From Deferribacterales bacterium (lineage in GTDB: Bacteria; Chrysiogenota; Deferribacteres; Deferribacterales; Geovibrionaceae): a DNA stretch of 64,000 nt. A model generated the notes under the pieces. That model had not been told where the DNA came from and ran no database searches. It saw only the letters and a list, made by a program, of their open reading frames with translations. Both the position numbers and the translations under genes were made by a program. The stretch lies in assembly GCA_050253335.1 (NCBI GenBank), contig JBFWJG010000001.1, positions 32,001 to 96,000 on the forward strand, written 5' to 3'. Shown here piece by piece: positions 17,788 to 62,908 of this stretch (position 1 is its first letter; every line of letters begins with the position of its first letter).

Positions 17788-18049
17788 CATAAGCCCCGCG
17801 GGAGCAGGTTTTCTTCTTCCGCGGGCAGTTTGTTTATTTCGGCTTAAATCAGGTCTTTTTCTGTTGCCGTTTTTCACCGCCTCTATTATCTTAACGCTTG
17901 CGCGCGCATTTCGCGAGAATGTGGTTTTGCTGAAAATCATTCTCCGCTGTTCTGTGTGTCCTCCGTGCAGCCGGACCTTGTTTATCAGGGTGCGGGCGTG
18001 TATGGAAATTCTCATGGCTGAAGAATTTTTTTGTTAATGAAGGTGCATT

Positions 18050-48568: not shown

Positions 48569-48595
48569 AGGGGAGCCCTTAGGGCTCCCCTTTTT
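48569..48595 (+). terminator. Intrinsic terminator after MCP
   Basis: AGGGGAGCCC-TTA-GGGCTCCCCTTTTT. Confidence 0.85.
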
Positions 48596-48604
48596 AAAGC
48601 CGAG

Positions 48605-48675
48605 CGAGATAATTTTTACTCAATGGTGAGATAATTTTTTCTTGAAGCGGTTTGATACTGTCAAAAACAGTTTGA
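48605..48675 (+). repeat. Left-end putative transposase binding sites and subterminal palindrome
   Basis: CGAGATAATTTTT (48605) and TGAGATAATTTTT (48627); TCAAAAACAGTTTGA (48661-48675). Confidence 0.7.
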
Positions 48676-48680
48676 AACAC

Positions 48681-48712
48681 GAAAAAGGGCGGGATAAAAA
48701 CCGCCCTTTTTC
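48681..48712. terminator. Bidirectional terminator ending the repressor/cargo operon
   Basis: GAAAAAGGGCGG-GATAAAAA-CCGCCCTTTTTC. Confidence 0.8.
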
Positions 48713-48714
48713 AT

Positions 48715-49458: not shown

Positions 49459-49467
49459 GCCTACCTC

Positions 49468-49929
49468 CTATTGAAAATATGTAACAACGAGTGCAACCCC
49501 TGTTAAAATGAAATAAAGAGGAGCAACCGACCAAGTGAAAAAATTGTCTAAAATGGAGCTTACTTTTTTATATGACATATCTGGCTTTAGATTAAAAAGT
49601 GTCCTGTCATCAAATTTACCGTCAAGCATAGCGGTAACAGCTTTATCGTATTTTGCTGTATAATCTTTTCTCAAAGCAGCATAGAGAGCATTCTGAACAC
49701 CAAGAAGCACTATAACGACAAGGCATAAGGGAAGCTTCAAATTTGCCTGAACAGAGTCATTGCTCAAAGCAATAATAGCTCCAACGATAAGTACACAAAG
49801 CATTCTACATTGAGATGAATAAGTAGACATTCTCACTATATTTTGCTGTATAAATTCAAGATAAGCGATAAATGAAGGTGAATCTGCTGTAGGCTTTTTT
49901 GAGCAATCTGAAGAGTCTTTATTTTCCAT
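49468..49929 (-). CDS. Small multi-TM membrane protein, putative effector partner of the TIR protein
   Basis: LEFIQ.NI.RM...S motif followed by about 3 hydrophobic helices; GGAGG RBS couples it to the TIR gene. Confidence 0.65.
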   Translation of the reverse strand: MENKDSSDCSKKPTADSPSFIAYLEFIQQNIVRMSTYSSQCRMLCVLIVGAIIALSNDSVQANLKLPLCLVVIVLLGVQNALYAALRKDYTAKYDKAVTAMLDGKFDDRTLFNLKPDMSYKKVSSILDNFFTWSVAPLYFILTGVALVVTYFQ

Positions 49930-49952
49930 TGTATAACCTTCTATGATTTCTT

Positions 49953-50627
49953 CTATTTTATTGACATTACATAGGTATAAAGCTTTTCGAGCTGCTTGAA
50001 ATTCAGTTCCTTAAGAGATGATATTTCAACGTCCAGTAGCCTTTGAGCTATGATGTAAGCATCATTCTTCTTATACCCTTTTTCCTTGAGCCTAACATGG
50101 ATTGCAACCTGCCAATCTTTCATCACTTGGTTAGAGGTTATGTTGGGGGAGATCTTACGCAAACGTGCTATCTGGCTGTTGAGATACTTTTGAATAGTAG
50201 GAAAATCGACTTGCTTAAGTTGATTATATTTCGTTACTTTAAATCTTCTGCACAAAACCCCATACCACTTTTTATAAAGCCCTTGGCGGGTTTTAGTGTT
50301 GTCTGTGTCAAGGTCAACAAGCTCCTCAATCTTTGTGCGGACGGTGAGCTGTTGGGCAGGTGTTATGTCATCAGGCTGAGGAGCAATGACATGCTTTTCT
50401 GTGATCTTGGGGTTTACGTTCGTGATGAACTGGTTGTTGCTTCCTGCTATCTGGACGTTATTGTTGCCTTCAATGGATTGGCTTACGTTGGTCCGGGAAC
50501 TGACCTGAAGGTTGCCGTCACCTTTAACCTTTTGAGAGGCTCTGCTTGTGTTTCCCAAAGGTTTCTTTCTTTTCTTAGCTTCTTTGAACAAGTCTATAAT
50601 TTTGCCTTTTGTATCTTTGTCAGACAT
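49953..50627 (-). CDS. Phage accessory protein with Q/N/G repeats and ORF6C-like C-terminal region
   Basis: SQ.V.GDGNLQV / SQSIEGNNNVQIAG repeats; W..L..RFKV.KY.QL...DF...KYL resembles ORF6C. Confidence 0.55.
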   Translation of the reverse strand: MSDKDTKGKIIDLFKEAKKRKKPLGNTSRASQKVKGDGNLQVSSRTNVSQSIEGNNNVQIAGSNNQFITNVNPKITEKHVIAPQPDDITPAQQLTVRTKIEELVDLDTDNTKTRQGLYKKWYGVLCRRFKVTKYNQLKQVDFPTIQKYLNSQIARLRKISPNITSNQVMKDWQVAIHVRLKEKGYKKNDAYIIAQRLLDVEISSLKELNFKQLEKLYTYVMSIK

Positions 50628-50649
50628 AATCAGCCTCTAAAATTATTCT

Positions 50650-51114
50650 TTAGTCTTCCATGAGGTTGTCAAATTTATATTTTTTTATACCTGCTTCAAC
50701 AATACTAAATTCATCTTTCAATTTATTGTTCATCAGTACATAGTTATTTTGAAGTCTTGCAAAAATGCAATATGCTATGATTATTACAATTAATGAATGT
50801 ATGGGGCTGAAAATATATGAAACTACGATAACCGATAAAAGAGTAATAATTAACAATACAAACTTGTTCCATTCAAAATTGTCCACGTTTTTCTTGCTTT
50901 CTGCATTAAGTCTGTTAATTTCAGCATTAATCTTTTCAGGACTAATACGAGATTTATTATTAGTAATGTTGAAATACTGGGTAAGGTCTCCTGACAGTTG
51001 TATGTTTCCACTGCCTTTAATATATTGACTTCCCGCCTCATGTGACTTGTATTGTTGATTTTCATCACCGATAATTTTTTGAGATATTTTGTCATCTTTA
51101 TCAGCCATACACAC
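50650..51114 (-). CDS. Two-TM membrane protein with N-terminal Q/N/G repeats
   Basis: SQKIIGDENQQ / SQYIKGSGNIQL, then two hydrophobic helices; start may be the second Met. Confidence 0.6.
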   Translation of the reverse strand: MCMADKDDKISQKIIGDENQQYKSHEAGSQYIKGSGNIQLSGDLTQYFNITNNKSRISPEKINAEINRLNAESKKNVDNFEWNKFVLLIITLLSVIVVSYIFSPIHSLIVIIIAYCIFARLQNNYVLMNNKLKDEFSIVEAGIKKYKFDNLMED

Positions 51115-51116
51115 AC

Positions 51117-51542
51117 CTACGAAGCAAGGCTTATCAAATTGCGTATTTTATCTTTGTCTATAGTTGATTTCTCACTATTCATTGCGTCCTGAAGCAGGAG
51201 CATTACTAGCTTACTTTTCTTATCAGGCTTCATATAGAGGTCATTTTTATCCAATATTTCTTCAACTGTCTCAATAATCACTCTGAGCTTGTTTTCGATA
51301 TTTTGGAAACCATTTGCTACTGTCTTGTACTCTTCTTTTGTATTTCCATTGATAATCCAATTTAAATCTTGGTCATGGCATACTGAGAATATTTTCTCAT
51401 AATCAAGAGAATTTCTTTTTTTCCATGTTGAAACCGTATTGGGCTTGATTTCAAGTAGTTGAGCAAGCTCCACATCACTGTGTAACCCTTTTACTTTTTT
51501 CAAACGCTCAATAACTAAAGTGGCATTTTGCGATTTTTCCAT
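51117..51542 (-). CDS. CI-like prophage repressor (HTH)
   Basis: IERLK......SD.ELA.LL.I...TVSTWKKRNS..DLNWII.G; divergent from Ner-like gene. Confidence 0.85.
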   Translation of the reverse strand: MEKSQNATLVIERLKKVKGLHSDVELAQLLEIKPNTVSTWKKRNSLDYEKIFSVCHDQDLNWIINGNTKEEYKTVANGFQNIENKLRVIIETVEEILDKNDLYMKPDKKSKLVMLLLQDAMNSEKSTIDKDKIRNLISLAS

Positions 51543-51571
51543 TTGACACATTCTCAATTTGCGATTATTAT
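51521..51571 (+). promoter_or_regulatory. Early (lytic-direction) sigma70 promoter with putative repressor operators
   Basis: TTGACA (51543-48), 17 bp spacer, TATTAT (51566-71); near-palindromes TCTCAATTTGCGA (51552-64) and TGGCATTTTGCGA (51521-33). Confidence 0.75.
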
Positions 51572-51604
51572 AACGTATTAAAACAGTTTAGCACGAGGTC
51601 AACG

Positions 51605-51868
51605 ATGACACAATATGAAATCAAAACGGTTTTGACAGAGGAGATTAAACGGAAACTGCTTGAGAAGGGGCATTCCATATCGTCTTGGGCAAGGCTGAAA
51701 GGGTACAGGGTTCAGAACGTCATCACCTACATTGACCGCTATTCATCAAAACCTCAACTGCCTCAAAGTCCAAAGATATATGAAATTTTACTTAACATTC
51801 GCAAAAGTACGGGTGTTGACCTCACAACAGGAAGAATACACAGCATGAGTATAAGAAAAAGTACATAA
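51605..51868 (+). CDS. Ner/Cro-like small DNA-binding protein
   Basis: EIK..L.EKG.SISSWAR..GY HTH pattern; first gene after the early promoter. Confidence 0.7.
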   Translation: MTQYEIKTVLTEEIKRKLLEKGHSISSWARLKGYRVQNVITYIDRYSSKPQLPQSPKIYEILLNIRKSTGVDLTTGRIHSMSIRKST

Positions 51869-51885
51869 GACCTCCTTTGGTTTTG

Positions 51886-51929
51886 CCCTCCGTGTGTTTT
51901 CAGTGCTTCAAGCACGGAGGGATTTTTTT
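51886..51929 (+). terminator. Terminator/attenuator after the Ner-like gene
   Basis: CCCTCCGTG...CACGGAGGG then ATTTTTTT. Confidence 0.55.
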
Positions 51930-51965
51930 CACCACTGGAGAAATAACAATAACGGAGGAAACAGA

Positions 51966-52202
51966 ATGACAGCGGAACAGGCAAGAGAACGGGTAAACGG
52001 AGTTATCAGGCTGTTGGACGGGCTAACAGTAAAGGAAGCTAACCAAGTGCTTGATTCCGTAAGAAGGCAGACACAGGAAGCCATTATAAGACCGCTGGAA
52101 GACGGCATGAATTTGGCTGTTCCCCCCCAAAGAGACAGTTTCATCACTTCGCTTGAGGCTTTGGTTGAACGGCATACTAAAGGCAGTCCTGCCTCTATTT
52201 AA
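51966..52202 (+). CDS. Hypothetical phage protein
   Basis: GGAGG RBS before ATG 51966. Confidence 0.6.
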   Translation: MTAEQARERVNGVIRLLDGLTVKEANQVLDSVRRQTQEAIIRPLEDGMNLAVPPQRDSFITSLEALVERHTKGSPASI

Positions 52203-52213
52203 GGCTTTGTAAG

Positions 52214-52456
52214 GTGGTTATTTTGGAAACTGGATTGAAAGAGACGCTTGTTAGAGAACTAAGTGCAGCAAACCCTGAATATACACCTAAGGACGTTATC
52301 ACCGCCTTAAAGGGTAACAGGGAATGCGCCTTTCTGACGGCGTGTGAGTTTGCGGACTTGGTTCTGGAAATATTTGAAGAAAGCAGCTTGGCGAAGATGT
52401 TTTACAGCATGAGAGAGCTTAAGAGGAGCGGGGGAGAAAAAATCCTCCCCCTTTAG
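52214..52456 (+). CDS. Hypothetical phage protein
   Basis: ORF in early operon orientation; start uncertain. Confidence 0.45.
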   Translation: MVILETGLKETLVRELSAANPEYTPKDVITALKGNRECAFLTACEFADLVLEIFEESSLAKMFYSMRELKRSGGEKILPL

Positions 52457-52614
52457 CCAAGCGATAAGCACCTTAGAACGCTCTGCCCCAACGCTTCCCA
52501 AGAATGCTTACAAGGCTTATGCCAGTTTGATCAGGTGACATGGGTAACGTACAGGCGAATATGCACAAATACACAGGTAACACAGCTTAGGAATTAACGT
52601 CAAAAGAGGTTGAA

Positions 52615-52902
52615 ATGGCAAACAATATACAGAAGTTCGCAAAACTTGTTGATACAGAGGAGTACGGTCAAGTCCTTCTGATGACTCTTTATAACGATGA
52701 GGCAGAACAATATGAGCTTAGATTTATGGTTAATTCAGGCAATCTCACTATTCAGGAATTACGTTGGGGCTTTCTTCCACATGCAACATTAGAAGATATA
52801 TACGACTACTTGATGGATTTTCCTGTTGAGGGAATTGTTGAGGCTATTGGCATGATGATAGAGAGAGCACCTGAAGCATGGATTCAGACGAGGGAGATAT
52901 AA
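52615..52902 (+). CDS. Hypothetical acidic phage protein
   Basis: GAGG RBS, 95 aa. Confidence 0.6.
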   Translation: MANNIQKFAKLVDTEEYGQVLLMTLYNDEAEQYELRFMVNSGNLTIQELRWGFLPHATLEDIYDYLMDFPVEGIVEAIGMMIERAPEAWIQTREI

Positions 52903-52903
52903 G

Positions 52904-53428
52904 GTGCAAGGTACAGGTTTTAAATTAGATACGAGCGAGCTTGAAGATCTTTTCAAGGATCTGTTAGCGAAAATTGCAAATCCTAAACCTGCATTGCGTG
53001 ATATAGGCGAAGCTCTTGTCTCTAGCACAGTCGAACGTCTGTATGATGGTGTCACACCTGAGGGGAAAAAGCAAACACCCGTTAAAAATCGTCCTGGTGA
53101 AACACCCCTATTGGATTCGACAGACTACTCAAGAGGCTTCAAATATGCAGTAGGTAAAGATTGGGTTGTTGTTGGCACGAATAAGCCGCAAGCCCGTCTG
53201 CTGCACAAAGGCGGTGTGCTTGAACCCAAAGTAATCAAATCCAAAGTAGGCAAAGACGGTAAGCGTAAGCCTTTAGCTTTTACCATAGGCGGTAAAAAAG
53301 TCTTTGCCCATAGTGTAAAAATTCCTGCGGTCACAATACCCGCTAGACCGCACATAGGCATAAGTGAAGATGATAAGGAAGAGATAGCCTATCTTATAAG
53401 GCTTTACTTATCAGGAGCAGCAAAATGA
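52904..53428 (+). CDS. Phage virion morphogenesis protein (Mu gpG / P2 gpS family)
   Basis: L..IGE.L..ST..R...G..P.G, VGTN..QA..LH.GG, IPARP.IGIS..D..EI. Confidence 0.85.
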   Translation: MQGTGFKLDTSELEDLFKDLLAKIANPKPALRDIGEALVSSTVERLYDGVTPEGKKQTPVKNRPGETPLLDSTDYSRGFKYAVGKDWVVVGTNKPQARLLHKGGVLEPKVIKSKVGKDGKRKPLAFTIGGKKVFAHSVKIPAVTIPARPHIGISEDDKEEIAYLIRLYLSGAAK

Positions 53429-53589
53429 TAAAAATTTATTTAACAGTATTTTTCGGAACGGTGCTTCTTATGAATGTCTTTAACGGGATTCAACTTATGA
53501 ATCAGAAACCTAACATCATTATAACGGCAATATCTACAGGCATGACAATAGCCCTTTGTATGTTGTTGCTGGCTGCTTTGTGGAAATGA
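53425..53589 (+). CDS. Small two-TM membrane protein (54 aa, below ORF track cutoff)
   Basis: ATGA overlap with the gpG stop, AGGAG RBS; MIKIYLTVFFGTVLLMNVF...IALCMLLLAALWK. Confidence 0.55.
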   Translation: MIKIYLTVFFGTVLLMNVFNGIQLMNQKPNIIITAISTGMTIALCMLLLAALWK

Positions 53590-53598
53590 GGGGGATAT

Positions 53599-53895
53599 AT
53601 GGCTGAAAAAACATACAAGCCCATAGCGGCTGGGTTAAAGATACTCAAAGCTTTAGACATTATCGCAATGAGTTCCGAGCCTGTGACGGTGAAGCGGATA
53701 ACGGAAATGACCGAAGAACCATACGGAACGACCATGACGCACATAGCCACGCTTGAACAGGCTGGCTACATAGAGCGTGTGGGTGACGGATACGCTATCA
53801 CCCTGAAGCTCGGTACGTTCTGGGCAAAGAAAAAGGCAAGCCTTCAAGGGGTAATAACCCGCACACAGGCGGAACTAAGGGAAATAGGAGCATAG
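53599..53895 (+). CDS. IclR-type wHTH protein of Mu-like phages
   Basis: K.L..LD.IA, T...H.ATLEQAGYIER. Confidence 0.75.
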   Translation: MAEKTYKPIAAGLKILKALDIIAMSSEPVTVKRITEMTEEPYGTTMTHIATLEQAGYIERVGDGYAITLKLGTFWAKKKASLQGVITRTQAELREIGA

Positions 53896-53898
53896 GTT

Positions 53899-54897
53899 AT
53901 GAAGCGTGATATTGAATACGAACAGGCACAGCTTGAGGCGGCTGATGACATAGCAGAGATGGAGCTTGCCAAGGTTCAGCAGGTGAAATCAGAGCAACCG
54001 CATAATCAGCAGGAAAGAGAGGCGTTGATTGCGGAAGCGTACAGGCTGACAGGTAGAATTGAAGCATTTTCGACTTTTGCAAAATTTGCCGATGTCGGCA
54101 CTTTGATTATGCTTAAACAAATCAAAGACAACAAGATTTATAAAGATATGCCAAGTCTTGGTACATGGGAAAATTATTGTCAATCAATAGGAATGTCAAG
54201 GAGCAAAGTAGATGAAGACCTCAAAAACCTTGAAATGTTTGGCGAAGCTTTTTTAGCCGACATCGGCAGTTTTGGACTTGGCTATCGTGAACTTCGCAAG
54301 CTCCGCTCCGCCGCTTCGGAAGGAACACTTTCCATAACCGACAATTCTATCACTATCGAAGTGATAGACGGCGAAACAACCAAGCAGGAGACCATACCGT
54401 TGAACGACAAGGACGAGCTGAAGGAAGCCCTTGAGCGTATCATCACCGCCAAAGATGAAGCTCTTGCCGCTAAAGACCGTGAGCTGAAGGCGCAGGAAAA
54501 GCTAACAGAGTTCAACAAAAACGAGTGGGATAAAAGCGAAAAACAACTTCTTACAGCCACAAAAGAGCTTAATAAGCTGACTGGCAAGGGTGTTATAAAC
54601 GGCGTACCTTCTGATGATTACCCCATCTTCTCAAGGCTTTCAAGCGTTGCTTCGGACATAACGGGCATTTATGCAGAGCTGAAGCAGATTCATGCGGAAA
54701 CGCTTTCTGACAACAACACCCAGTATCTCCACGGAACAATCATGTACATGGTTCAACTTGCCAGTGAGCTTTCATTCCTTGTGCCTGCGGGCATAGGAGA
54801 CATGGAGGCAACGCCCGATGAAATTGACGAGATAGCAGACGGTTTACCTCTCCCCGGCATACGCAACCTGCCTAATTACGGAAAGGCTGAAAGGTAA
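53899..54897 (+). CDS. DUF3102-like protein preceding the Mu-like transposase
   Basis: L..IK..K.YK...TWE.YC..IGMSRSKVDEDL.NL..FGE.F....GLGYR.LRKLR. Confidence 0.65.
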   Translation: MKRDIEYEQAQLEAADDIAEMELAKVQQVKSEQPHNQQEREALIAEAYRLTGRIEAFSTFAKFADVGTLIMLKQIKDNKIYKDMPSLGTWENYCQSIGMSRSKVDEDLKNLEMFGEAFLADIGSFGLGYRELRKLRSAASEGTLSITDNSITIEVIDGETTKQETIPLNDKDELKEALERIITAKDEALAAKDRELKAQEKLTEFNKNEWDKSEKQLLTATKELNKLTGKGVINGVPSDDYPIFSRLSSVASDITGIYAELKQIHAETLSDNNTQYLHGTIMYMVQLASELSFLVPAGIGDMEATPDEIDEIADGLPLPGIRNLPNYGKAER

Positions 54898-54901
54898 GCA
54901 T

Positions 54902-56683
54902 ATGTCACCTGAAGCTCTGAATCACATAAAAACCTCTCTTGAGACCTGCGAAACGCCTAAGGAACGCACCATCGAAGCCGCAAGGTTGAGTGAGTTCTAC
55001 GGTATTTCTACCGCTTCATTTTGGAGATGGGCAAACAAGGCGGGTTTTCGGGTGCGTTCGGCACGCTCCGACAGGGGTAAAAGCGAGCTGACAGATGACG
55101 AGTTGAAGCTTATAGCCGCTAGAGTGCTTGTGGGCAAGCAGTTAAGGAACAAGTTTACCAACTCCGTTAAAAACGCCCTTGAGGAGCTTGCAAGAGAGGG
55201 GTTCACCTTCCCTGTGGGGTATGAACGTATATGCTCACTGCTTCGTGAAAAGGGGTACGACAAGGAGAGCTTGGCGACTATTCCGCCCCATGTAAGGCTT
55301 ATCTCAAAGCACCCGAACGAGACATGGCAGTTTGATGTTACCAACTGCTTACAGTGGCATTTGGACAAGAAAACAGGGCTTACAGAGCGTGATTTGGAGA
55401 TGAATTTCTACAGCAACAAGGCTGTGAAGTTTCTTAAAACCATCAAAAGGGAGCTTCTCCGCTTCGTTATGGTTGACCATTGCACGGGTGCTTTTTTCTT
55501 CTGGTATTACTATGTTCCCGGCGAACGTGCAGAGGAAGGGGCGGACTTCTTTTATAAGGCTTTTGCTAGGAAAGACAGCCTCATACAGACCTATCTGAAC
55601 TCTGAAACAGGCATGTACCAGATGCACGGAGTACCTTTCAGGCTTGTTTCCGACAAGGGGTCAATCCTTAGGCATAAGTCTATTATCAACCTTATGGACG
55701 CTCTTGATGTGAAGATTGAGCTTCATGCCGCAGGCAACCCAAGGGCAAAAGGCAAGGTTGAACGCCTTATGCGCACCATAGGCACTAAGTTTGAAACAAT
55801 CCTGAAAGTACGCCGACCTGTAGACCTTGCCGAGCTGAACCGATGGGCATTGGCATGGTGCATTAACCATAATCAGACCTTCGTGAGCAAAAAGAAGGAG
55901 CTTCCTGCCGCTGAATACTGGCTGAAGATAAGGCAGACAGAACTTAGGCTTTGCCCTCCCGAAGAGCTTTTTAAGACCCTTATACACAGGGCGGATTATG
56001 AAAGAACGGTTGACGGCAGTGGGCATATATCATTCCACGGACGGGAGTATTTTATCAAAGATGTCAACGCCGTACGCAAGAAGGTTAAGGTCACTATCAA
56101 TGCCTATGAATACCCACTGATTGATATTCATTTTGACGGGCATGTATGGAAGACCGCCCCTATAGGAACAGACGAATACGACAGGCTGATAAGCCCTGCA
56201 AACGTTGAATACGGCACTTACAGGGCATTACCCCATACCATCACGCAAAAGCATATCAGCGAGCTTGAACAGGTGGCTATAGACAACTTTGGAGTCGGTT
56301 TTAAGGGTAATAAGCAGAAACGCCAGTCCATAGCCCCAGAACGAGGCAAAGAGAAGATTAAACCTATGGATAAGGTCATTCAGCCTGAGAAGGTTCACCA
56401 TCTTCAGAAACAGGGCATTGAGCTTGTAACGCCTGATATCCATGCACCTTTGACGGAAAAAGAGGAAAGGCACTACACCGTTACGCTTCTGTTTGACACT
56501 GGTGAAAAACGCCTTAGCACAACCGACTTGATACTCCGTATTGTTCGGGAGGTTCGTAAGCTCTCGGTTGAGGAAAATAAAGCGATAAAAGCACGTTGGA
56601 AGAACGGAGTAACAGCCACAGAGGCAGACCAAATTATACAGAACATGCTGGAGGTGACACATGCCGAGAGTAATTACAGCTAA
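54902..56683 (+). CDS. MuA-like DDE transposase
   Basis: R..RSDRG, HPNE.WQFD (D1), SDKGS (D2), GNPRAKGKVER (E). Confidence 0.9.
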   Translation: MSPEALNHIKTSLETCETPKERTIEAARLSEFYGISTASFWRWANKAGFRVRSARSDRGKSELTDDELKLIAARVLVGKQLRNKFTNSVKNALEELAREGFTFPVGYERICSLLREKGYDKESLATIPPHVRLISKHPNETWQFDVTNCLQWHLDKKTGLTERDLEMNFYSNKAVKFLKTIKRELLRFVMVDHCTGAFFFWYYYVPGERAEEGADFFYKAFARKDSLIQTYLNSETGMYQMHGVPFRLVSDKGSILRHKSIINLMDALDVKIELHAAGNPRAKGKVERLMRTIGTKFETILKVRRPVDLAELNRWALAWCINHNQTFVSKKKELPAAEYWLKIRQTELRLCPPEELFKTLIHRADYERTVDGSGHISFHGREYFIKDVNAVRKKVKVTINAYEYPLIDIHFDGHVWKTAPIGTDEYDRLISPANVEYGTYRALPHTITQKHISELEQVAIDNFGVGFKGNKQKRQSIAPERGKEKIKPMDKVIQPEKVHHLQKQGIELVTPDIHAPLTEKEERHYTVTLLFDTGEKRLSTTDLILRIVREVRKLSVEENKAIKARWKNGVTATEADQIIQNMLEVTHAESNYS

Positions 56684-57866
56684 TGCACGGGAAATCAACC
56701 TAAAACGGATAATACAGGCTGCACGTATGACGCAGGAAGGTTTCCGTACCATGTTGGCAGAGGAAGCGCAGATAGATATAGCGCAGTCAAGCTTCAAGCT
56801 GCTTCTGCAAAAAGGGATTATCCCTAAATGGATAGATAAGAAGCAGGTTGAAGGCTTTGTCATGACAAGGCTGCCTTTCGTTATGCAGTCACAGGAACTG
56901 ACAGCCCCGCAGATATGGGATTATGCGGAGCAGGAACAGGGTAAAAGGTTCGTGTTTGAAGCAAGCGAAGACGATTATGCCAAAAAGTTAAAAACATACA
57001 TGGAGATTACTATGCTTAGATTGGATACAATGAGGCATTTCAAACTGGCTCAGAACCCTTTCATTTTGGATATACGCAGAGAGAGCGAGATATTCATGGG
57101 TTCATCTCATCAATTCGCCTTTGAAGTGATGAAACAGACGGCGGAAACAGGCGGGTTTGCCGTTATCACGGGTGAAGTCGGAGCGGGTAAATCAACCGTT
57201 CGCCGCAAGTTTTTTGAGGACTCAAGGCAGAATAAGATTTGCCAGATTATTTACCCTGAATCAATCGACAAATCACGTTTGACTGCTAAGGACGTTCTGT
57301 ATTCCATCATCTACGACCTGACCGAAGCCAAGCCGCAGGGCAATAAAGAAGCCCTAAGCAGGCAGGCAAAGGCACTGCTGCTTGCCAGAAGCAACAACAA
57401 TGAGCGTACGGTTCTGGTTATCGAAGAGGCTCACGACCTGCCTGTTACCACCTTGAAGTTTCTTAAGCGCATATGGGAGCTTGAAAACGGTTTACAGAGG
57501 CTTTTAGGCATTATTCTCATAGGTCAGAATGAGCTTGAGACAAGGCTTTACGGACGAAACAGTACGGAGATAAGGGAAGTGACCGCAAGAACCGCTCATG
57601 CAAGGGTTGAAGCTCTCGGCAAGGAAATGCCTTCTTACATAGCTCACAAGTTCAAATGCGCTAAGGCAGATGTGAACAGGATTATTTCACCTGAAGCACT
57701 TAAGCTTTTGGTTGACTGTATGAAGATAACCGACCGTATGGGCAAAGAAAAATCAATGGGGTATCCGCTCTTTGTGAGCAATGTGATGATAAGGCTTATG
57801 AACTACGCAGCAGAAGCGGGGGAAGAGCTTATAACCCCTGAAATAATAGAGACGGTAGGAGTTTAG
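56661..57866 (+). CDS. MuB-like / ExeA-family AAA transposition ATPase with N-terminal extension
   Basis: NPF, GEVGAGKST, VLVIEEAH, ILIGQ.EL; overlaps the transposase end. Confidence 0.88.
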   Translation: MPRVITANAREINLKRIIQAARMTQEGFRTMLAEEAQIDIAQSSFKLLLQKGIIPKWIDKKQVEGFVMTRLPFVMQSQELTAPQIWDYAEQEQGKRFVFEASEDDYAKKLKTYMEITMLRLDTMRHFKLAQNPFILDIRRESEIFMGSSHQFAFEVMKQTAETGGFAVITGEVGAGKSTVRRKFFEDSRQNKICQIIYPESIDKSRLTAKDVLYSIIYDLTEAKPQGNKEALSRQAKALLLARSNNNERTVLVIEEAHDLPVTTLKFLKRIWELENGLQRLLGIILIGQNELETRLYGRNSTEIREVTARTAHARVEALGKEMPSYIAHKFKCAKADVNRIISPEALKLLVDCMKITDRMGKEKSMGYPLFVSNVMIRLMNYAAEAGEELITPEIIETVGV

Positions 57867-57867
57867 C

Positions 57868-58233
57868 ATGGAAAGAGTAGGCATATTTATTATCAGGTAT
57901 GACGGGCGTTTTATGGTTATGCCTGACGGTACGGGAACGTTAAGAGGCTTTTTAGAAGAAGGGGAGACCCCAACCGATGCGGCAGTCAGAGTTTTGGCGA
58001 ACTCTGCCCCATGCGGCTACACAGGCTCTCCCGTGTTTGTTATATCCGAAAAAACAGAGGTTGCGAAGGATTATCTGTTTGCCGTCCGTGCGGCAAAGCA
58101 TGACGGCAGATTTTTGAGCCACAAAGAACCTACGGATATGGTTCAGTGCTTAGCTTGGACTTCTCTGCGTCAGGCTGAAAAGAAAGAAAAATATGTAAAG
58201 AAACAAATAGCTGATAAGGCGGTGAACTCATGA
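57868..58233 (+). CDS. Nudix-fold-like protein with degenerate Nudix box
   Basis: GFLEEGETPTDAAVRVLANS matches G-x5-E-x7-R but lacks the catalytic Glu residues. Confidence 0.5.
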   Translation: MERVGIFIIRYDGRFMVMPDGTGTLRGFLEEGETPTDAAVRVLANSAPCGYTGSPVFVISEKTEVAKDYLFAVRAAKHDGRFLSHKEPTDMVQCLAWTSLRQAEKKEKYVKKQIADKAVNS

Positions 58234-58436
58234 GCTACACACATAACATGACAAACGCAGAACGGCTTAGAGAGCTGGCTAAACTAAGCAGCACGGTTGG
58301 TGAGTTTCAGGACAAAGCCATATCGGGCGTAATGCTGAAAATGACTTTATCAGAGTTTGAAACAGAGCTGGAAACCATGAAGGTAGGGGATCTGCACGAC
58401 TACTTTGAAAAGGTCAAAAACGGAGATGGAAAATGA
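58230..58436 (+). CDS. Hypothetical phage protein
   Basis: ATGA-coupled on both sides. Confidence 0.6.
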   Translation: MSYTHNMTNAERLRELAKLSSTVGEFQDKAISGVMLKMTLSEFETELETMKVGDLHDYFEKVKNGDGK

Positions 58437-58918
58437 CCATACAAAACTGGAACGATGTTGATAAGGCACTCCGCCTTATCGGTGAAAAAGAAATAGCACT
58501 GGCAAATATAGACGGCGATATGACGCTTAAAATAAACGCTGTGAAAGAGGACGCAAAACAAGCAGCCGAAACCATAGCCATAGAGAAAAAGGAGCTTGAA
58601 AAGGCTGTAGAGGGCTTTTGTGAGGCGAATAAGGCTGAGTTTGCCCTTAAACGCAGCAAAGAACTTACTTTCGGTGAGATAGGTTACAGGCTGGTTAAGT
58701 CCGTATCCATTCCAAGAGTTAAAACTAAGCTTGAATCACTCATAAAGAGCTTAAAGGTTTTCGGGCTTTCCGACTGCATTACATACACCGAAGCAGTGGA
58801 CAAGGACAAGCTTACGGAATTGAAAGATGAAGACCTTGTAAAGCTCGGTTTAAAGCGCACCGTCAAGGATTCGTTCCGTATCAAAACCAACATTGAGAAG
58901 GTTAAGGAAGTCGGTTGA
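58433..58918 (+). CDS. gam: Host-nuclease inhibitor Gam family protein
   Basis: I.NWNDVD.AL..IGE, FC..NK.EF...RS.EL.FG.IGYR, E.VDK..L. Confidence 0.85.
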   Translation: MTIQNWNDVDKALRLIGEKEIALANIDGDMTLKINAVKEDAKQAAETIAIEKKELEKAVEGFCEANKAEFALKRSKELTFGEIGYRLVKSVSIPRVKTKLESLIKSLKVFGLSDCITYTEAVDKDKLTELKDEDLVKLGLKRTVKDSFRIKTNIEKVKEVG

Positions 58919-58949
58919 ACCCCAAGTACCAATTTAGCAGGAGATAGCT

Positions 58950-59237
58950 ATGAACACGAAAAGTCAGACGGTTTTCAATCAAAGCTTCCAAGAGGTTGTA
59001 GAGGTTGTGGGTATGGAAGGGGCGATAAAGCTTTGTGAAGTCTTTGGTGGGCTTGAAATATACATTCCAAAAATGGACTACCTAAAACGCTTGGAGAGGA
59101 ACAGAGCTATAGTTGACGCTTATGACGGTACTCAAGCTTCTATTGCCCTGCTTGCTAAAGAATACCAGCTTTCTTCAAACCAAATCAGAGTGATTTTGAG
59201 AGGAAGGAAGACACGAAATAAGGAGATTGAAGCATGA
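58950..59237 (+). CDS. mor: Mor/C family transcription activator
   Basis: G.E.A.KL...FGG..IYIPK...RNR.I...YDG....LA.EY.LS..QIR.IL. Confidence 0.88.
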   Translation: MNTKSQTVFNQSFQEVVEVVGMEGAIKLCEVFGGLEIYIPKMDYLKRLERNRAIVDAYDGTQASIALLAKEYQLSSNQIRVILRGRKTRNKEIEA

Positions 59238-59752
59238 GCAATAGGAAATATTACACTCTTACGGGAGAAAGTCTTAAAAAGGTTAAAGTATTTGTTGATG
59301 AGCTTCAGGCAGTCTTTAAGAAAAGGAATGAGTACATGAAAATAAACAATTTCGCAGGACTCACGCATGGCGGTGGAGTTGTTAGCGGAGTGATTTTGAA
59401 GGAACAATCTGACGATAAAAAGTGGCGAAAAAGAAAAAAGGCTTCGCAGTACGGATACGCTCATTACCCATCAAACACAAAAGAAGGCAAAAAGATTTCA
59501 GGTGAGCTAAGCAGACTTAGAGGAAAGGATATGATGGCTTTCAGCGATGAATTTAACCTGCCTTTAGCGTTTACAATGGAAGGCTTATACACATCGGCAG
59601 TTCATCTTGTAGGCGAAAACATTATTTTGACTGTTCCAGAGCCAGAAGAAATTAAGCCTGAACACCCTTTTTTCAAAGACGCTACCCTGCTTAAGCTAAG
59701 CGAGTATTACGCACTCAAAGAGCAGGTGCTAGAAGCCGAAACGCCCCGCTAG
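59234..59752 (+). CDS. Hypothetical phage protein
   Basis: ATGA-coupled; its stop codon overlaps loop III of hammerhead 1. Confidence 0.65.
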   Translation: MSNRKYYTLTGESLKKVKVFVDELQAVFKKRNEYMKINNFAGLTHGGGVVSGVILKEQSDDKKWRKRKKASQYGYAHYPSNTKEGKKISGELSRLRGKDMMAFSDEFNLPLAFTMEGLYTSAVHLVGENIILTVPEPEEIKPEHPFFKDATLLKLSEYYALKEQVLEAETPR

Positions 59753-59791
59753 GGGTGTCTGGTGGGAGTAACCGCCCATCACTGACGAGGC
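59735..59791 (+). ncRNA. Type II hammerhead ribozyme 1
   Basis: GCC-GAAA, stem III ACGCCCC/GGGGTGT, GUC (cleavage after 59759), stem I TGGTGGG/CCCATCA, CUGACGA, GGC closing stem II. Confidence 0.9.
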
Positions 59792-59808
59792 AGGTTAAGG
59801 AGTTATCC

Positions 59809-59970
59809 ATGTGGAAATATATTGTTGGCTGGTTCATCGTGAACACTGTTTTTGCTATCTACGAAGAAATCGTATATGGCAAAGCTTTCGTACATATTTT
59901 TGACATTCTTAATGTGCTTTTTTGGGGTGGTTTGTATCTCCTTGAACTTTTCGGAGGAGCATATGAATAG
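59809..59970 (+). CDS. Small two-TM membrane protein
   Basis: AAGGAG RBS right after hammerhead 1; hydrophobic 53 aa. Confidence 0.6.
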   Translation: MWKYIVGWFIVNTVFAIYEEIVYGKAFVHIFDILNVLFWGGLYLLELFGGAYE

Positions 59971-60523
59971 GGTAACGGCAAAGCAGGTTCAGCTGATTCA
60001 TATAGCCAAAAAGCAGCTTGAAATATGCGATGACGATTACCGCAGTATTTTGAATGAATACTTCAAAGTTAGGAGTTCTAAAGACCTTACGGAACGTCAG
60101 GCTGAAAGACTGATTACTCATTTCAGGCAAAAAGGTTTCCGTATAAACACCGCCAAGAAAGCCAAGCCTACAGGCTCTACTATTATCGCTTTCCCTACAT
60201 CATTTCAGCTTGAGCTTATAGAGGTTTTAAAAAGCAATATCGTATGGAAAGCAGGATTTGAGGGGTTTCAGCTTTGGCTTGAAAAGCGAATGAGGATTAA
60301 GAAAATTCGCACAAAGCAAGAGGCGGCAAAAGTCATTGAAGGCTTGAAAGCCATGCTTGGGATTGATGCCGAGATAATCAAAATGAAATCGCTGCCTTTC
60401 CCTATATGCCTTGATGAAGCCTACTTTATAGATAACTTCACGGGTGAGGTTCTGCCCTTCAGGTGGGTTTATGACATTGAAAAAAGAAAGCTTATCAGAA
60501 TTGAAAACTCTATATGGAGATAA
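59963..60523 (+). CDS. GemA / DUF1018 regulatory protein
   Basis: Q..LIHIAK.QL...DD.YR..L......SSKDLT; A.KVIEGLKAM. Confidence 0.85.
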   Translation: MNRVTAKQVQLIHIAKKQLEICDDDYRSILNEYFKVRSSKDLTERQAERLITHFRQKGFRINTAKKAKPTGSTIIAFPTSFQLELIEVLKSNIVWKAGFEGFQLWLEKRMRIKKIRTKQEAAKVIEGLKAMLGIDAEIIKMKSLPFPICLDEAYFIDNFTGEVLPFRWVYDIEKRKLIRIENSIWR

Positions 60524-60525
60524 AT

Positions 60526-60714
60526 ATGAGAATAACTTGTACTGCACAGATTCGCCCTTACTGCTTTTTTGGAACGGGGAAGTGCTGCCTTGCTTGTCCG
60601 TTAAACCAGAAGTGCCGCGAAGAAAATAAAAAGAAAGGTTGTAAGCTTATACCTTGCGGTGATGAACACGCCGAATCTTTAAAAGAGTGTGGATTCTGCT
60701 CCATTGAGAAGTAA
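60526..60714 (+). CDS. Small cysteine-rich protein (10 Cys in 62 aa)
   Basis: GGAG RBS; CC..C, C..C pattern. Confidence 0.55.
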   Translation: MRITCTAQIRPYCFFGTGKCCLACPLNQKCREENKKKGCKLIPCGDEHAESLKECGFCSIEK

Positions 60715-60753
60715 GTGAAGATCTTAACAAAATTATATAAAAAGGAGATTAAA

Positions 60754-61221
60754 ATGAAAAACTGGGAAGACGTTTCAGCCGGAATAAGCAGGCTGACCGC
60801 AATTAAGCACGAAAAAAAGCAATTAAAAATCACAGCCGGAAGAGTGGCGGACAGTGTTATTAACGAACTTGTCAAAAGAAGAGACGATGAAATCAACGCA
60901 ATCAGAATGAAGTACGCTGAACTTATTCCGCAGGAACAGGCAAAAACGATAAAAGAGATCTCTTCCAAAAAAGACAAGCTCAATGAAGAAGCTTTTGAGC
61001 TTGAAGAATCTATAAAAGATTACGTGCTTCAAAGCAAGGAAACAAAGGAGATAAAAGAGCTAATCGAACAGCCATACAAAAGAGATGACAATTCACCGTA
61101 TGAGTTTAATAAGACCTTCAGAGAGGGGAGTATATACTATCGGAACAACCTTCCTTTCACCATACCTCCGTCATATTCAAGAAGTGAAGAGATTCAGATT
61201 ATATTGAATTGTGATAGGTGA
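60754..61221 (+). CDS. Divergent Gam-like coiled-coil protein
   Basis: AAGGAG RBS; MKNWEDVSAGISRL resembles the Gam N-terminus; LEESIKDYV and KTF.EG.I.YR echo the Gam C-terminal half. Confidence 0.55.
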   Translation: MKNWEDVSAGISRLTAIKHEKKQLKITAGRVADSVINELVKRRDDEINAIRMKYAELIPQEQAKTIKEISSKKDKLNEEAFELEESIKDYVLQSKETKEIKELIEQPYKRDDNSPYEFNKTFREGSIYYRNNLPFTIPPSYSRSEEIQIILNCDR

Positions 61222-61225
61222 ATCA

Positions 61226-61828
61226 ATGGCTTGGGATAAAATAGCACGAACAGGCTCTTTTACTGATATGAACGGAAATACATACACCTTCACCGATGAT
61301 ATTCTCAAACGTTTGGTGCGTTCTTTCAAAACTGGTTCAGAAAAAGTACCCCTTGTCTTAGGTCACCCTGAAACAGACTATCCTGCACATGGTTGGATAA
61401 AAGATTTAAGAGTAAATAACGGCTTTCTTGAAGCTCAATATGAAAACCTCTCTGAAGAGTTGAAAAGACTCGTACAGGAAGGACGGTTTAAATATAAAAG
61501 TATCTCCGTTAATGGCGGTCTGACCAAGTTGAAGCACTTAGGCATACTAGGTGCGGTTGCACCTGCTATGAGCGGCTTAGGGAGCATTCAGTTTAATAAA
61601 TATGATAACGGCATTGTGATGTACTTTGCTGAAAAGGTCATGGAGGGAAATATGACATTAGAAGAATTAGGTAAAATGGTTGAGCAACAGCAAGACGAAA
61701 TCGAAAAATGCAGAAGGGACATTGACGCACTTATGAAGGCAATCGCCGCAGGCGGTACTTCATCGTCTAGCTTCGCAAGTTCCAGTCACTACGGTGTATC
61801 AGGGCAGAAAATGGCAAGTAAGCTTTAA
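61226..61828 (+). CDS. Mu gpI-like prohead protease domain with short C-terminal scaffold-like tail
   Basis: I.RTG.FTDMNG, PLVLGHP....PA.GWI..L, V..GRFK..SIS, L.HLG.LGA..PA..GL; internal GGAGGG-ATG at 61652. Confidence 0.82.
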   Translation: MAWDKIARTGSFTDMNGNTYTFTDDILKRLVRSFKTGSEKVPLVLGHPETDYPAHGWIKDLRVNNGFLEAQYENLSEELKRLVQEGRFKYKSISVNGGLTKLKHLGILGAVAPAMSGLGSIQFNKYDNGIVMYFAEKVMEGNMTLEELGKMVEQQQDEIEKCRRDIDALMKAIAAGGTSSSSFASSSHYGVSGQKMASKL

Positions 61829-61833
61829 CCTGA

Positions 61834-61887
61834 AGCCGAAACAGGGGAAAGCCCCCTGTCTGCAACTAAGCTTGTACTGATGAGGCT
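61834..61887 (+). ncRNA. Type II hammerhead ribozyme 2
   Basis: AGCC-GAAA, stem III ACAGGGG/CCCCTGT, GUC (cleavage after 61860), stem I TGCAA/TTGTA, CUGAUGA, GGCT closing stem II. Confidence 0.9.
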
Positions 61888-61971
61888 GCGGTAAAAAATT
61901 TAAAAACGACCCGCAAAAAATTACAAAAAACACACATCTTCAAAAAATTCAAAAAAAATCCTGAAAACCAA

Positions 61972-62072
61972 TCAAAACAGTTTTGACATTTAACACAAAA
62001 GGAGCGGAGTGTAAGACACCTGTTAAGAGATTTTTCTAAATTATCTCATCATTAGCGGGTTCTTATCTTACA
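61972..62072 (-). repeat. Right-end putative transposase binding sites and terminal CA
   Basis: Minus strand reads TG-TAAGATAA...TGAGATAATTT (22 bp spacing, as at the left end); palindrome TCAAAACAGTTTTGA at 61972-61986. Confidence 0.72.
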
Positions 62073-62093
62073 CCCCGTCACCTTTTTGTTTGT

Positions 62094-62894: not shown

Positions 62895-62908
62895 ATATTC
62901 CTCCTTGG

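What the first reader, a model, noticed from the sequence alone, without database searches (positions are those of the whole stretch)
59735..61887. Two type II hammerhead ribozymes, 2100 nt apart, bracket the element's late gene cassette
Seen: both sites have the full catalytic core (CUGAnGA, GAAA, GUC) and all three stems. They share a GAAGCCGAAAC lead-in but have different, correctly pairing stem I and III sequences, which argues for selection on structure. Both are on the sense strand; predicted cuts are after 59759 and 61860. Known: type II hammerheads occur in bacterial and prophage intergenic regions and leave 5'-OH and 2',3'-cyclic phosphate ends. Inference: double cleavage would excise a 2101-nt RNA carrying the TM protein, GemA, the Cys-rich protein, the Gam-like protein and the protease/scaffold. 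It could be stabilised by its 5'-OH, or circularised by an RtcB-type ligase into a coding circular mRNA.
Basis: partly seen in the sequence, partly recalled or inferred. Interest (0 to 1): 0.87.

Follow-up and report, generated by a model that had tools for sequence, protein, structure and literature searches.

The report
Two hammerhead ribozymes flank five genes
Two self-cutting RNA motifs of a known kind sit on either side of five genes at the right end of a small Mu-like mobile element; this arrangement has been described for prophages since 2011, so the find is real but largely ordinary.

Summary
Both sites are real type II hammerheads on the + strand, with cuts predicted after 59759 and 61860, 2,101 nt apart. 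HH1 (59734-59799) passes Rfam RF02276 (52.8 bits, cut-off 37) and has the usual loop I/3'-tail pseudoknot. HH2 (61830-61891) gets no Rfam hit. It has a complete core and three stems, and it is the best window hit (31.5 bits, E 8e-8) of a model built from ten compact viral type II hammerheads; Rfam gives no hit for five of those ten. A descriptor scan found only these two sites in 64 kb, against 1 hit in 300 shuffles. They lie in a 13.5-kb Mu-like transposable element with intact ends, a target duplication and no capsid or tail genes. HH2 follows the last gene, about 190 nt from the right end. The bracketed genes are not a shown "late cassette": GemA is inside, the "Gam-like" label fails, and the true Gam lies upstream. 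Clustered hammerheads flanking prophage genes, and possible circular products, were published in 2011, and this scan has met such pairs on other DNA. One new hint: HH2's leader pairs over 7 bp with HH1's tail, so the ends of the excised RNA could rebuild a hammerhead. The host encodes RtcB. No RNA data were available.

The parts
48595..62080 (.). 13.5-kb Mu-like transposable element that carries both ribozymes
   Evidence: G007 has the uninterrupted site: homology to the MCP side ends and homology to the encapsulin side begins within 7 bp. A CCTTTT-type target duplication of 5-7 bp is present; its exact length is ambiguous because of a T run. By eye, each end has two (G/A)AGATAA sites 22 nt apart. 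Genes: repressor, MuA, MuB, Gam, Mor, GemA. No portal, terminase, capsid or tail gene was found.
58950..59237 (+). Mor-family transcription activator, upstream of HH1
   Evidence: Pfam Mor 4.9e-13; phrog_836 and phrog_532 late transcriptional activator.
59234..59752 (+). 172-aa ORF of unknown function whose last ~19 nt overlap the 5' part of HH1
   Evidence: ORF list and translation. No Pfam or PHROG hit.
59734..59799 (+). HH1, a classical type II hammerhead; predicted cut after C59759
   Evidence: RF02276 52.8 bits, cut-off 37. Stem I 7 bp, stem II 3 bp, stem III 7 bp. By eye, loop I UAACC (59769-59773) pairs with the 3' tail GGUUA (59793-59797), a 5-bp pseudoknot. The SD AAGGAG (59797-59802) and the ATG at 59809 follow.
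59809..59970 (+). 53-aa hydrophobic (probable membrane) protein
   Evidence: Translation. No family hit. No membrane-helix predictor was run; 'membrane' is judged by eye.
59963..60523 (+). GemA homologue
   Evidence: Pfam GemA 2.5e-15; phrog_286 2.6e-25.
60526..60714 (+). 62-aa protein with 10 cysteines
   Evidence: Translation. No family hit.
60754..61221 (+). 155-aa protein of unknown function, not Gam-like
   Evidence: No Pfam or PHROG hit. BLASTP against the element's Gam gives E 1.0. No Gam family at E<=10.
61226..61828 (+). 200-aa Mu-like head maturation protease homologue, the last gene of the element
   Evidence: phrog_976 7e-34, matching profile positions 32-178 of 415. tblastn hit 68 phage records over residues ~5-145. 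A 189-aa protein at 60% identity has the same C-terminus. Clade homologues sit in open frames of 230-308 aa.
61830..61891 (+). HH2, a compact type II hammerhead; predicted cut after C61860
   Evidence: Complete core. Stem III 7 bp; stem I 5 bp with a 6-nt loop; stem II 4 bp, then an A.G mismatch, then 3 bp. R1 31.5 bits, E 7.8e-8. No Rfam hit. No loop I/3'-tail pseudoknot seen.
61825..61831 (+). HH2 leader UUAACCU (includes the protease stop codon), complementary to the HH1 tail AGGUUAA (59792-59798)
   Evidence: Cofold of the two ends of the excised RNA gives a chimeric hammerhead at -32.2 kcal/mol. The helix is 7 bp of Watson-Crick pairs; random window 12-mers reach >=6 bp in 154 of 20,000.
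61892..61970 (+). A-rich non-coding spacer between HH2 and the conserved right end
   Evidence: Sequence. No ORF of >=40 aa on the + strand. Has no counterpart in the sibling element.
61971..62080 (.). Conserved right end (attR) of the element
   Evidence: 91% identical over 110 nt to the right end of the sibling element on contig 9 of the same genome. It ends at the junction with host DNA.

Best explanation
Two type II hammerhead self-cleaving ribozymes lie in the rightward operon of a 13.5-kb Mu-like transposable element. As the polycistronic RNA is made, HH1 folds and cuts after C59759, which is 7 nt past the stop codon of the 172-aa ORF. HH2 cuts after C61860, which is 32 nt past the stop codon of the protease gene. 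This releases a 2,101-nt five-gene mRNA (membrane peptide, GemA, Cys-rich protein, 155-aa protein, protease homologue). Its 5' end is a 5'-OH followed by the stem I hairpin, the pseudoknot and the ribosome-binding site. Its 3' end is the stem III hairpin with a 2',3'-cyclic phosphate. The likely effect is to separate the stability and translation of this block from the upstream early genes (through Mor). It would also separate the block from any read-through across the element's right end into the convergent host encapsulin operon; HH2 would supply a defined 3' end where no intrinsic terminator was found. Shown here: the motifs, their positions and the gene context. Inferred: cleavage in vivo and its effect on expression. 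HH2 may be inherited from a full-length phage in which it separated the protease gene from the next head gene.
For: HH1 passes Rfam's curated threshold. HH2 has every conserved core letter, three helices and the canonical minimum-energy fold. It is the top window hit of a model built from independent viral sequences, and the two sites are the only hits in the 2.58-Mb genome. The miss by Rfam is explained: of the 10 compact viral hammerheads, RF02276 scored 3 at or above its cut-off, 2 below it, and gave no hit at E<=10 for 5. That compact class is a real structured RNA: 130 of 130 cells are paired, and 7 of 13 pairs change on both sides. Both ribozymes start at or after the upstream stop codon, so cleavage leaves the ORFs whole. 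HH1 is followed by an SD and ATG, like most viral members. No + strand terminator-like site was found in 58800-62200. A hammerhead directly after a Mu-like protease ORF also occurs in metagenome loci L019 and L020 (70.4 bits). Published work: clustered hammerheads flank genes in prophages and cleave in vitro and in E. coli (Perreault 2011, PMC3088659; passages read). Three type II hammerheads cleave in vivo in Desulfovibrio vulgaris (Olzog 2021, PMC8782182; abstract and passages read).
Against: No cleavage data exist for these sites, and no RNA run was listed. HH2 is weak in several respects. Its stem I is 5 bp with one G.U and three A-U pairs, and it has no loop I/3'-tail pseudoknot. Perreault 2011 reports that disrupting that pseudoknot cuts the rate by 20- to more than 100-fold. 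Among 78 foldable viral relatives only 6 have a contiguous stem I of <=5 bp. In an 86-nt context the minimum-energy fold (-22.5) is not the hammerhead. HH2 has no downstream gene, unlike typical members, so it could be a leftover. A hammerhead after the protease gene was seen in only 1 independent relative: L019 and L020 carry the same hammerhead sequence, and 16 other protease loci (L005, L021, L023-L035, L179) have none. No protease homologue lies within 3 kb of the viral hammerhead loci L036-L115, of which 80 were fetched with full flanks. The effect on mRNA stability is inference. The poor activity of 5'-end-dependent RNases on 5'-OH RNA is recalled knowledge and was not checked here.
Confidence: 0.68

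Rival explanations
1. Only HH1 is a working ribozyme. HH2 is a decaying relic of a full-length Mu-like phage, left next to the right end after the late genes were lost. It cuts slowly or not at all and has no present role.
For: HH2 has the weakest stem I among the relatives examined, no pseudoknot, no downstream gene and no Rfam hit. An alternative fold is slightly more stable in the longer context. The element has no virion genes beyond the protease. In L019/L020 a hammerhead follows a full-length protease ORF inside a longer phage gene row.
Against: All core letters and all three helices are intact. Stems I and III differ from HH1 yet pair perfectly. Compact pseudoknot-less relatives are common: 15 of 78 viral ones show no loop I/3'-tail complement of 3 nt or more. 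The protease gene's short form with the same C-terminus persists in a relative at 60% identity.
Confidence: 0.2
2. After both cuts, the two ends of the 2,101-nt RNA pair with each other and rebuild a hammerhead: HH2's 5' half with HH1's 3' half. The ends are then joined, by hammerhead reversal or by the host RtcB ligase, into a circular five-gene mRNA, or are held as a protective panhandle.
For: The two halves share the stem II letters. In addition, HH2's leader UUAACCU (61825-61831) pairs with HH1's tail AGGUUAA (59792-59798). The cofold of the ends gives a chimeric hammerhead at -32.2 kcal/mol, against -27.9 for nicked HH1 and -23.5 for nicked HH2. Chance estimates from 20,000 random window 12-mers: a helix of >=6 bp in 154, energy <=-9.5 in 104, and a helix abutting stem II in 36. 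The host encodes RtcB above Pfam's cut-off.
Against: The complementarity was noticed after the fact. In 29 adjacent hammerhead pairs of viral arrays, tail-to-next-leader pairing is no better than in unrelated pairs (mean -3.0 against -3.1 kcal/mol), so this is not a general design. Using the tail for stem II gives up HH1's pseudoknot and covers the first letters of the SD. Perreault 2011 looked for circular or spliced products of such clusters and detected none. There are no RNA data here.
Confidence: 0.08
3. The second site is a chance match to the hammerhead consensus.
For: No Rfam hit. The fold z-score is only -1.98.
Against: The descriptor gave 1 hit in 300 shuffled windows. R1 gave E 7.8e-8 in the window and 3.1e-6 in the genome. 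The site is on the coding strand, starts 2 nt after a stop codon, and lies in the same element as a bona fide hammerhead.
Confidence: 0.02

Closest known systems
Clustered type II hammerhead ribozymes flanking genes in prophages (Perreault et al. 2011, PLoS Comput Biol, PMC3088659; passages read)
   Same: Several hammerheads on one strand bracket single genes or short gene blocks in prophage operons. The flanked genes are not constant. Processing into operon-length mRNAs was proposed, and circular or spliced products were considered. HH1 has the loop I/3'-tail pseudoknot the paper describes.
   Different: Here the second ribozyme is terminal: no gene follows it, and it lies about 190 nt from the end of a Mu-like element that lacks virion genes. 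HH2 also lacks the pseudoknot.
Rfam RF02276 Hammerhead_II
   Same: HH1 is a full-length match above the curated cut-off. HH2 has the same core and topology.
   Different: HH2 gets no hit at E<=10. It belongs with a compact subgroup (stem-loop I of 16-17 nt, AGCC/GGCU stem II, no pseudoknot) that the model often misses: 5 of 10 got no hit.
Type II hammerheads of Desulfovibrio vulgaris shown to cleave in vivo (Olzog et al. 2021, RNA Biol, PMC8782182; abstract and passages read)
   Same: Bacterial genomic type II hammerheads whose 5'-OH and 2',3'-cyclic phosphate fragments were captured from total RNA.
   Different: Different organism and loci. The passages I read do not mention a prophage setting; that link comes from an earlier scan note.
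Hammerhead-flanked circular RNAs: viroid-like RNAs and plant retrozymes (de la Pena and Cervera 2017, PMC5680766; search listing and abstract only)
   Same: A unit flanked by two hammerheads is excised with 5'-OH and cyclic-phosphate ends that can be ligated. The ends of the unit rebuild a hammerhead.
   Different: Per that abstract the retrozyme circles are small (600-1000 nt), non-coding and eukaryotic; that viroid-like circles are smaller still is recalled, not read here. This would be a 2.1-kb bacterial RNA coding for five proteins, and no circle has been shown.
Phage Mu early and middle region (general knowledge, not checked in a paper here)
   Same: Repressor, transposase A and B, Gam, GemA and Mor homologues; terminal transposase-site repeats; a short target duplication.
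   Different: The gene order is Gam-Mor-...-GemA rather than Gam-GemA-Mor. No lysis, head (apart from the protease homologue) or tail genes. The element is 13.5 kb, against about 37 kb for Mu.

Membership tests
Hammerhead ribozyme, type II (RF02276) | Conserved core: CUGANGA, GAAA with the A15.1-U16.1 pair, a non-G cleavage-site nucleotide, and a G10.1-C11.1 pair | tested here: met
   Both sites: read, descriptor scan, model alignments.
Hammerhead ribozyme, type II (RF02276) | Three helices around the core, with stems I and III closed by loops and stem II open | tested here: met
   The minimum-energy folds of both 70-nt stretches give this junction. Stem lengths I/II/III are 7/3/7 for HH1 and 5/4/7 for HH2.
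Hammerhead ribozyme, type II (RF02276) | Covariance-model score at or above Rfam's gathering cut-off (37 bits) | tested here: inconclusive
   HH1 met it at 52.8 bits. HH2 did not: no hit at E<=10. However, 5 of 10 compact viral relatives also got no hit, and HH2 scores 31.5 bits with model R1.
Hammerhead ribozyme, type II (RF02276) | Loop I/3'-tail pseudoknot (common in the family, not universal) | tested here: inconclusive
   HH1: 5 bp, UAACC with GGUUA, by eye. Different but complementary letters occur in the G004 and L019 hammerheads. HH2: none found.
Hammerhead ribozyme, type II (RF02276) | Mg-dependent self-cleavage giving 5'-OH and 2',3'-cyclic phosphate ends | not testable with these tools
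   No RNA holder was listed. This needs a bench assay.
Clustered prophage hammerheads (Perreault 2011) | Two or more hammerheads on the coding strand flanking a gene or short gene block in a prophage or mobile element | tested here: met
   Two sites on the + strand flank five + strand genes inside a Mu-like element.
Mu-like transposable phage | MuA- and MuB-type transposition genes, terminal repeats and a target-site duplication | tested here: met
   phrog_310 and phrog_296. Empty site in G007 and duplicated CCTTTT-type junction. Repeated end sites by eye.
Mu-like transposable phage | Complete virion module (terminase, portal, major head, tail) | tested here: not met
   None found between 48595 and 62080 with Pfam or PHROGs. 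Only a gpG-like morphogenesis protein and a protease homologue are present.
Hammerhead-processed circular RNA (viroid-like or retrozyme-like) | Covalently closed circular RNA product | not testable with these tools
   Only the preconditions were seen: complementary ends and a host RtcB.

The most novel reading that the evidence does not exclude
The two ribozymes work as a matched pair. After both cuts, HH2's leader and 5' half pair with HH1's 3' half (3-bp stem II plus a 7-bp extension). This rebuilds a hammerhead across the ends of the 2,101-nt RNA, which is then closed by ribozyme reversal or by host RtcB into a circular mRNA carrying five ORFs. That would be a natural protein-coding circular mRNA made by a bacterial mobile element, possibly one that depends on a helper phage because it has no virion genes.
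Probability: 0.07. Interest if true: 0.85.

Novelty: new member of a known kind. Interest (0 to 1): 0.33.

Why it matters
The biological role of hammerheads in phage operons is still open (review PMC6765202; passages read). This locus is a compact test case. It has one classical and one minimal type II hammerhead, a defined five-gene segment between them, no terminator, and ends that could pair. A single in vitro transcription plus end-specific RNA-seq would show three things: whether pseudoknot-less compact hammerheads cut in context, whether a terminal ribozyme can replace a terminator, and whether any circular product forms. There is also a practical point for annotation: Rfam's type II model gives no hit for about half of the compact subgroup, so counts of phage hammerheads are underestimates.

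Tried and rejected
1) RNA evidence: the look-up of sequencing runs (kind rna) for 58900-62100 listed no RNA holder.
2) Close relatives of the cassette:
- The protease protein found nothing in viral contigs.
- It found one weak 31-residue match in genome contigs (L005).
- It found three metagenome loci.
- blastn 'distant' of 59700-61950 against phage records gave no match.
3) Is a hammerhead after the protease gene a general rule? No. The loci with none were L005, L021, L023-L035 and L179 (16 loci). L021 and L005 were covered by Rfam and R1, L023-L035 by Rfam at E<=1 and R1 at E<=0.1, and L179 by R1 only. The descriptor scan also covered L005 and L021. No protease homologue lies near the viral hammerhead loci.
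4) Is tail-to-next-leader complementarity a general feature of hammerhead arrays? No. The 29 viral adjacent pairs equal the controls.
5) A 5'-leader pseudoknot for HH2: AAGCUU at 61820-61825 matches AAGCUU at 61868-61873. I noted it by eye and set it aside because it competes with stem I and was not tested.
6) The duplex of the first and last 150 nt of the excised RNA gave -78.1 against a shuffle mean of -58.8 (1 of 200 shuffles as low). I did not rely on it: the shuffle was mononucleotide, and GC-rich hairpin arms can pair with each other.
7) Earlier scan notes by place returned nothing.
Full report
OBSERVATION. The sequence read shows two sites on the + strand, each with GAAGCCGAAAC, a hairpin, GUC, a second hairpin, CUGA(C/U)GA and GGC. 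An Rfam gathering scan of the whole window returned a single match: RF02276 Hammerhead_II at 59734-59799, 52.8 bits against a cut-off of 37, E 5e-8. The second site was not reported. A permissive scan of 61700-62100 (E<=10) gave three unrelated weak matches and no hammerhead. An RF02276 scan of the whole genome at E<=10 gave four matches, of which only HH1 passed the cut-off and none was HH2 (150 of 324 candidates were scored).

IS HH2 REAL? Four lines of evidence say yes.
- Fold. Folded alone, 61826-61895 adopts the canonical three-way junction as its minimum-energy structure (-21.2 kcal/mol, z -1.98).
- Descriptor scan. I required GAAA, stem III >=4 bp, U plus a non-G, stem I >=4 bp, CUGANGA and stem II >=3 bp. 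The scan found exactly the two reported sites on both strands of the 64 kb, and one hit in total in 300 dinucleotide-preserving shuffles.
- Relatives elsewhere. A pattern scan of viral contigs for the shared core and stem II letters returned at least 130 loci, many with arrays of several hammerheads. These gave 86 distinct strings, of which 78 were foldable. Within them I found a compact subgroup: a stem-loop I of 6 bp plus 5 nt, an AGCC/GGCU stem II and mostly no pseudoknot. In ten such sequences all 130 pair cells are standard pairs, and 7 of 13 pairs change on both sides.
- Independent model. Covariance model R1, built from those ten sequences, ranked HH2 first in the window (31.5 bits, E 7.8e-8), HH1 second (30.2 bits) and the next hit at 13.3 bits. 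In the whole 2.58-Mb genome only these two sites reached E<=0.01.

The miss by Rfam is a property of the model. Of the ten compact viral sequences, RF02276 scored 3 at or above its cut-off, 2 below it, and gave no hit for 5. One caveat applies to R1: the fetch pattern came from letters shared by the two window sites, so R1's invariant positions match by construction. The pairing of HH2's own stems does not.

ANATOMY. HH1:
- Stem II is 3 bp, stem III 7 bp and stem I 7 bp.
- Loop I UAACC (59769-59773) pairs with the 3' tail GGUUA (59793-59797). This is the pseudoknot typical of type II hammerheads (Perreault 2011; passages read).
- The G004 and L019 hammerheads have different but complementary letters at the same places.
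- The tail runs into the SD AAGGAG, and the ATG follows at 59809.

HH2:
- Stem III is 7 bp.
- Stem I is only 5 bp (one G.U, three A-U) with a 6-nt loop.
- Stem II is 4 bp, then an A.G mismatch, then 3 bp.
- No loop I/3'-tail pseudoknot was found.
- In an 86-nt context a non-hammerhead fold is slightly more stable (-22.5).
- Only 6 of 78 viral relatives have a contiguous stem I of 5 bp or less.

HH2 is therefore a complete but thermodynamically marginal hammerhead.

CONTEXT. Pfam and PHROGs annotation gives this gene order on the + strand, with the repressor on the - strand:
- CI-type repressor (51117-51557, - strand) and a Ner-like HTH protein
- a gpG-like virion morphogenesis protein (52904-53428)
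- MuA-like transposase (54902-56683) and MuB-like ATPase (56661-57866)
- Gam (58433-58918) and Mor (58950-59237)
- a 172-aa ORF, then HH1
- a 53-aa hydrophobic protein, GemA, a 62-aa protein with 10 cysteines and a 155-aa protein of unknown function
- a 200-aa homologue of Mu-like head maturation proteases (phrog_976, profile positions 32-178 of 415; 68 phage records match residues ~5-145), then HH2.

A same-genus genome (G007) has the uninterrupted site, with the chemotaxis-receptor gene next to the encapsulin operon. The insert is therefore about 48595-62080, 13.5 kb, flanked by a duplicated CCTTTT-type target of 5-7 bp. By eye, each end carries two (G/A)AGATAA sites 22 nt apart. The element has no terminase, portal, capsid or tail gene. 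HH2 ends about 190 nt from the right terminus and no ORF follows it. No + strand terminator-like site was found in 58800-62200.

- The 155-aa protein is not Gam-like (BLASTP E 1.0 against the real Gam; no Gam family at E<=10).
- The block is not a demonstrated late cassette, since it contains GemA.
- The 200-aa protease is not a random truncation. A 189-aa protein at 60% identity ends the same way, and homologues in this clade sit in open frames of 230-308 aa.

RELATIVES.
- In the bacterial family, 3 of 16 genomes have an RF02276 hit above the cut-off.
- G004's hit lies in another short Mu-like element, upstream of different genes: a phrog_2044 protein, an HNH endonuclease and a Mor-like protein.
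- G005's hit lies in a non-Mu prophage, between methyltransferase genes and head genes.
- The flanked genes are thus not constant, as Perreault 2011 reported.
- A hammerhead directly after a Mu-like protease ORF occurs in metagenome loci L019 and L020 (identical hammerhead sequence, 70.4 bits). It does not occur at the 16 other protease loci examined, and no protease homologue lies near the viral hammerhead loci.
- The same genome holds a sibling element on contig 9: MuA 75%, Gam 83%, and a right end 91% identical over 110 nt. Its order is Gam-GemA-Mor, followed at once by the right end. It lacks the 172-aa ORF, both hammerheads and four of the five bracketed genes; its own GemA lies elsewhere, between Gam and Mor.
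- The two ribozymes therefore travel with the 2.7-kb block (about 59238-61970) that distinguishes this element from its sibling.

MECHANISM. The best-supported reading is ordinary ribozyme processing of a polycistronic transcript. The cuts fall 7 nt and 32 nt past the upstream stop codons and release a 2,101-nt five-gene mRNA with hairpin-protected 5'-OH and cyclic-phosphate ends. HH2 supplies a defined 3' end in the absence of a terminator. It also severs the coding RNA from any read-through across the element's end into the antisense strand of the encapsulin operon. Cleavage itself and any effect on stability are inferred. In vivo activity of bacterial type II hammerheads has precedent (Olzog 2021; abstract and passages read). 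The main rival is that HH2 is a relic of a full-length phage.

THE CIRCLE IDEA. The host encodes RtcB. HH2's 5' half and HH1's 3' half share stem II, and HH2's leader UUAACCU (61825-61831, including the stop codon) pairs with HH1's tail AGGUUAA (59792-59798). The cofold of the ends gives a chimeric hammerhead at -32.2 kcal/mol, more stable than either native nicked ribozyme. Of 20,000 random window 12-mers, 154 reach a helix of >=6 bp with that tail, and 36 do so abutting stem II.

Several points count against the idea. The pairing was noticed after the fact. It would displace HH1's pseudoknot. The 29 adjacent hammerhead pairs in viral arrays show no such complementarity (mean -3.0 against -3.1 kcal/mol in controls). 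Perreault 2011 looked for circular or spliced products of such clusters and detected none. I put this reading at about 7-8%.

COMPARISON AND NOVELTY. The arrangement is the one published in 2011: clustered type II hammerheads flanking prophage genes. Their function is still described as unresolved in a 2019 review (passages read). Earlier notes of this scan report similar pairs in Mu-like prophages on other DNA and judged them ordinary. This case is a new member of a known kind. It has three unusual details: a terminal, pseudoknot-less compact ribozyme that Rfam misses; a host element that is Mu-like but has no virion genes; and a possible end-to-end pairing.

Noticed in passing
window 48595-62080; L177 (own genome contig 9) 9793-16516; L008 (G004) about 8130-17900: Mu-like elements with transposase A/B, Gam, GemA and Mor, but no terminase, portal, capsid or tail genes, occur at least three times in this bacterial family. 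This one has intact ends and a target duplication. Its sibling on contig 9 (MuA 75%, right end 91% over 110 nt) ends about 27 nt after Mor. These could be deletion derivatives, or satellite-like elements that rely on a helper phage.
   Followed up: partly
viral loci L039, L040, L043, L070, L100: Rfam RF02276 gives no hit at E<=10 for 5 of 10 compact type II hammerheads (6-bp stem I, 5-nt loop, AGCC/GGCU stem II), even though their stems covary. Scans based on Rfam therefore undercount phage hammerheads.
   Followed up: partly
L110/L113 (one IMG/VR contig), L049, L060: Dense arrays of type II hammerheads on one strand: 9 in about 6 kb (L110/L113), 6 in about 3.2 kb (L049) and 5 in about 2.3 kb (L060). 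In many of them a UGA or UAA stop codon directly abuts the GCC of stem II.
   Followed up: partly
window 52904-53428 (+): A gpG-like virion morphogenesis protein (Pfam Phage_tail_S 4.5e-19) is encoded upstream of the transposase genes in the early region. This is an odd place for it, and it is one of only two morphogenesis-type genes in the element.
   Followed up: no
window 48715-51114 (-): The left arm of the element carries four minus-strand genes beside the repressor. They include a 247-aa protein with a weak TIR_2 match (E 0.0045) and a phrog_33368 match. These may be accessory or defence cargo.
   Followed up: no
window 62094-63280 (-): A host encapsulin gene (Linocin_M18, 2.5e-82) with an EncFtn/rubrerythrin-like cargo gene lies immediately outside the element's right end, convergent with the element's operon.
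   Followed up: no
L175 (own genome contig 4) 16596-18690: A separate cluster in the same genome: a 239-aa protease homologue (phrog_976), a head decoration protein and a major head protein. No third MuA homologue was found in the genome, so this belongs to a different prophage-like region and is a candidate helper.
   Followed up: partly
L177 10251-10783 (-): The GemA homologue of the sibling element matches as two overlapping pieces (residues 4-114 and 108-182), which suggests a frameshift.
   Followed up: no
window 61892-61970: An A-rich, C-poor 80-nt spacer with repeated CAAAAAATT(A/C)-type words lies between HH2 and the conserved right end. The sibling element has no counterpart.
   Followed up: no
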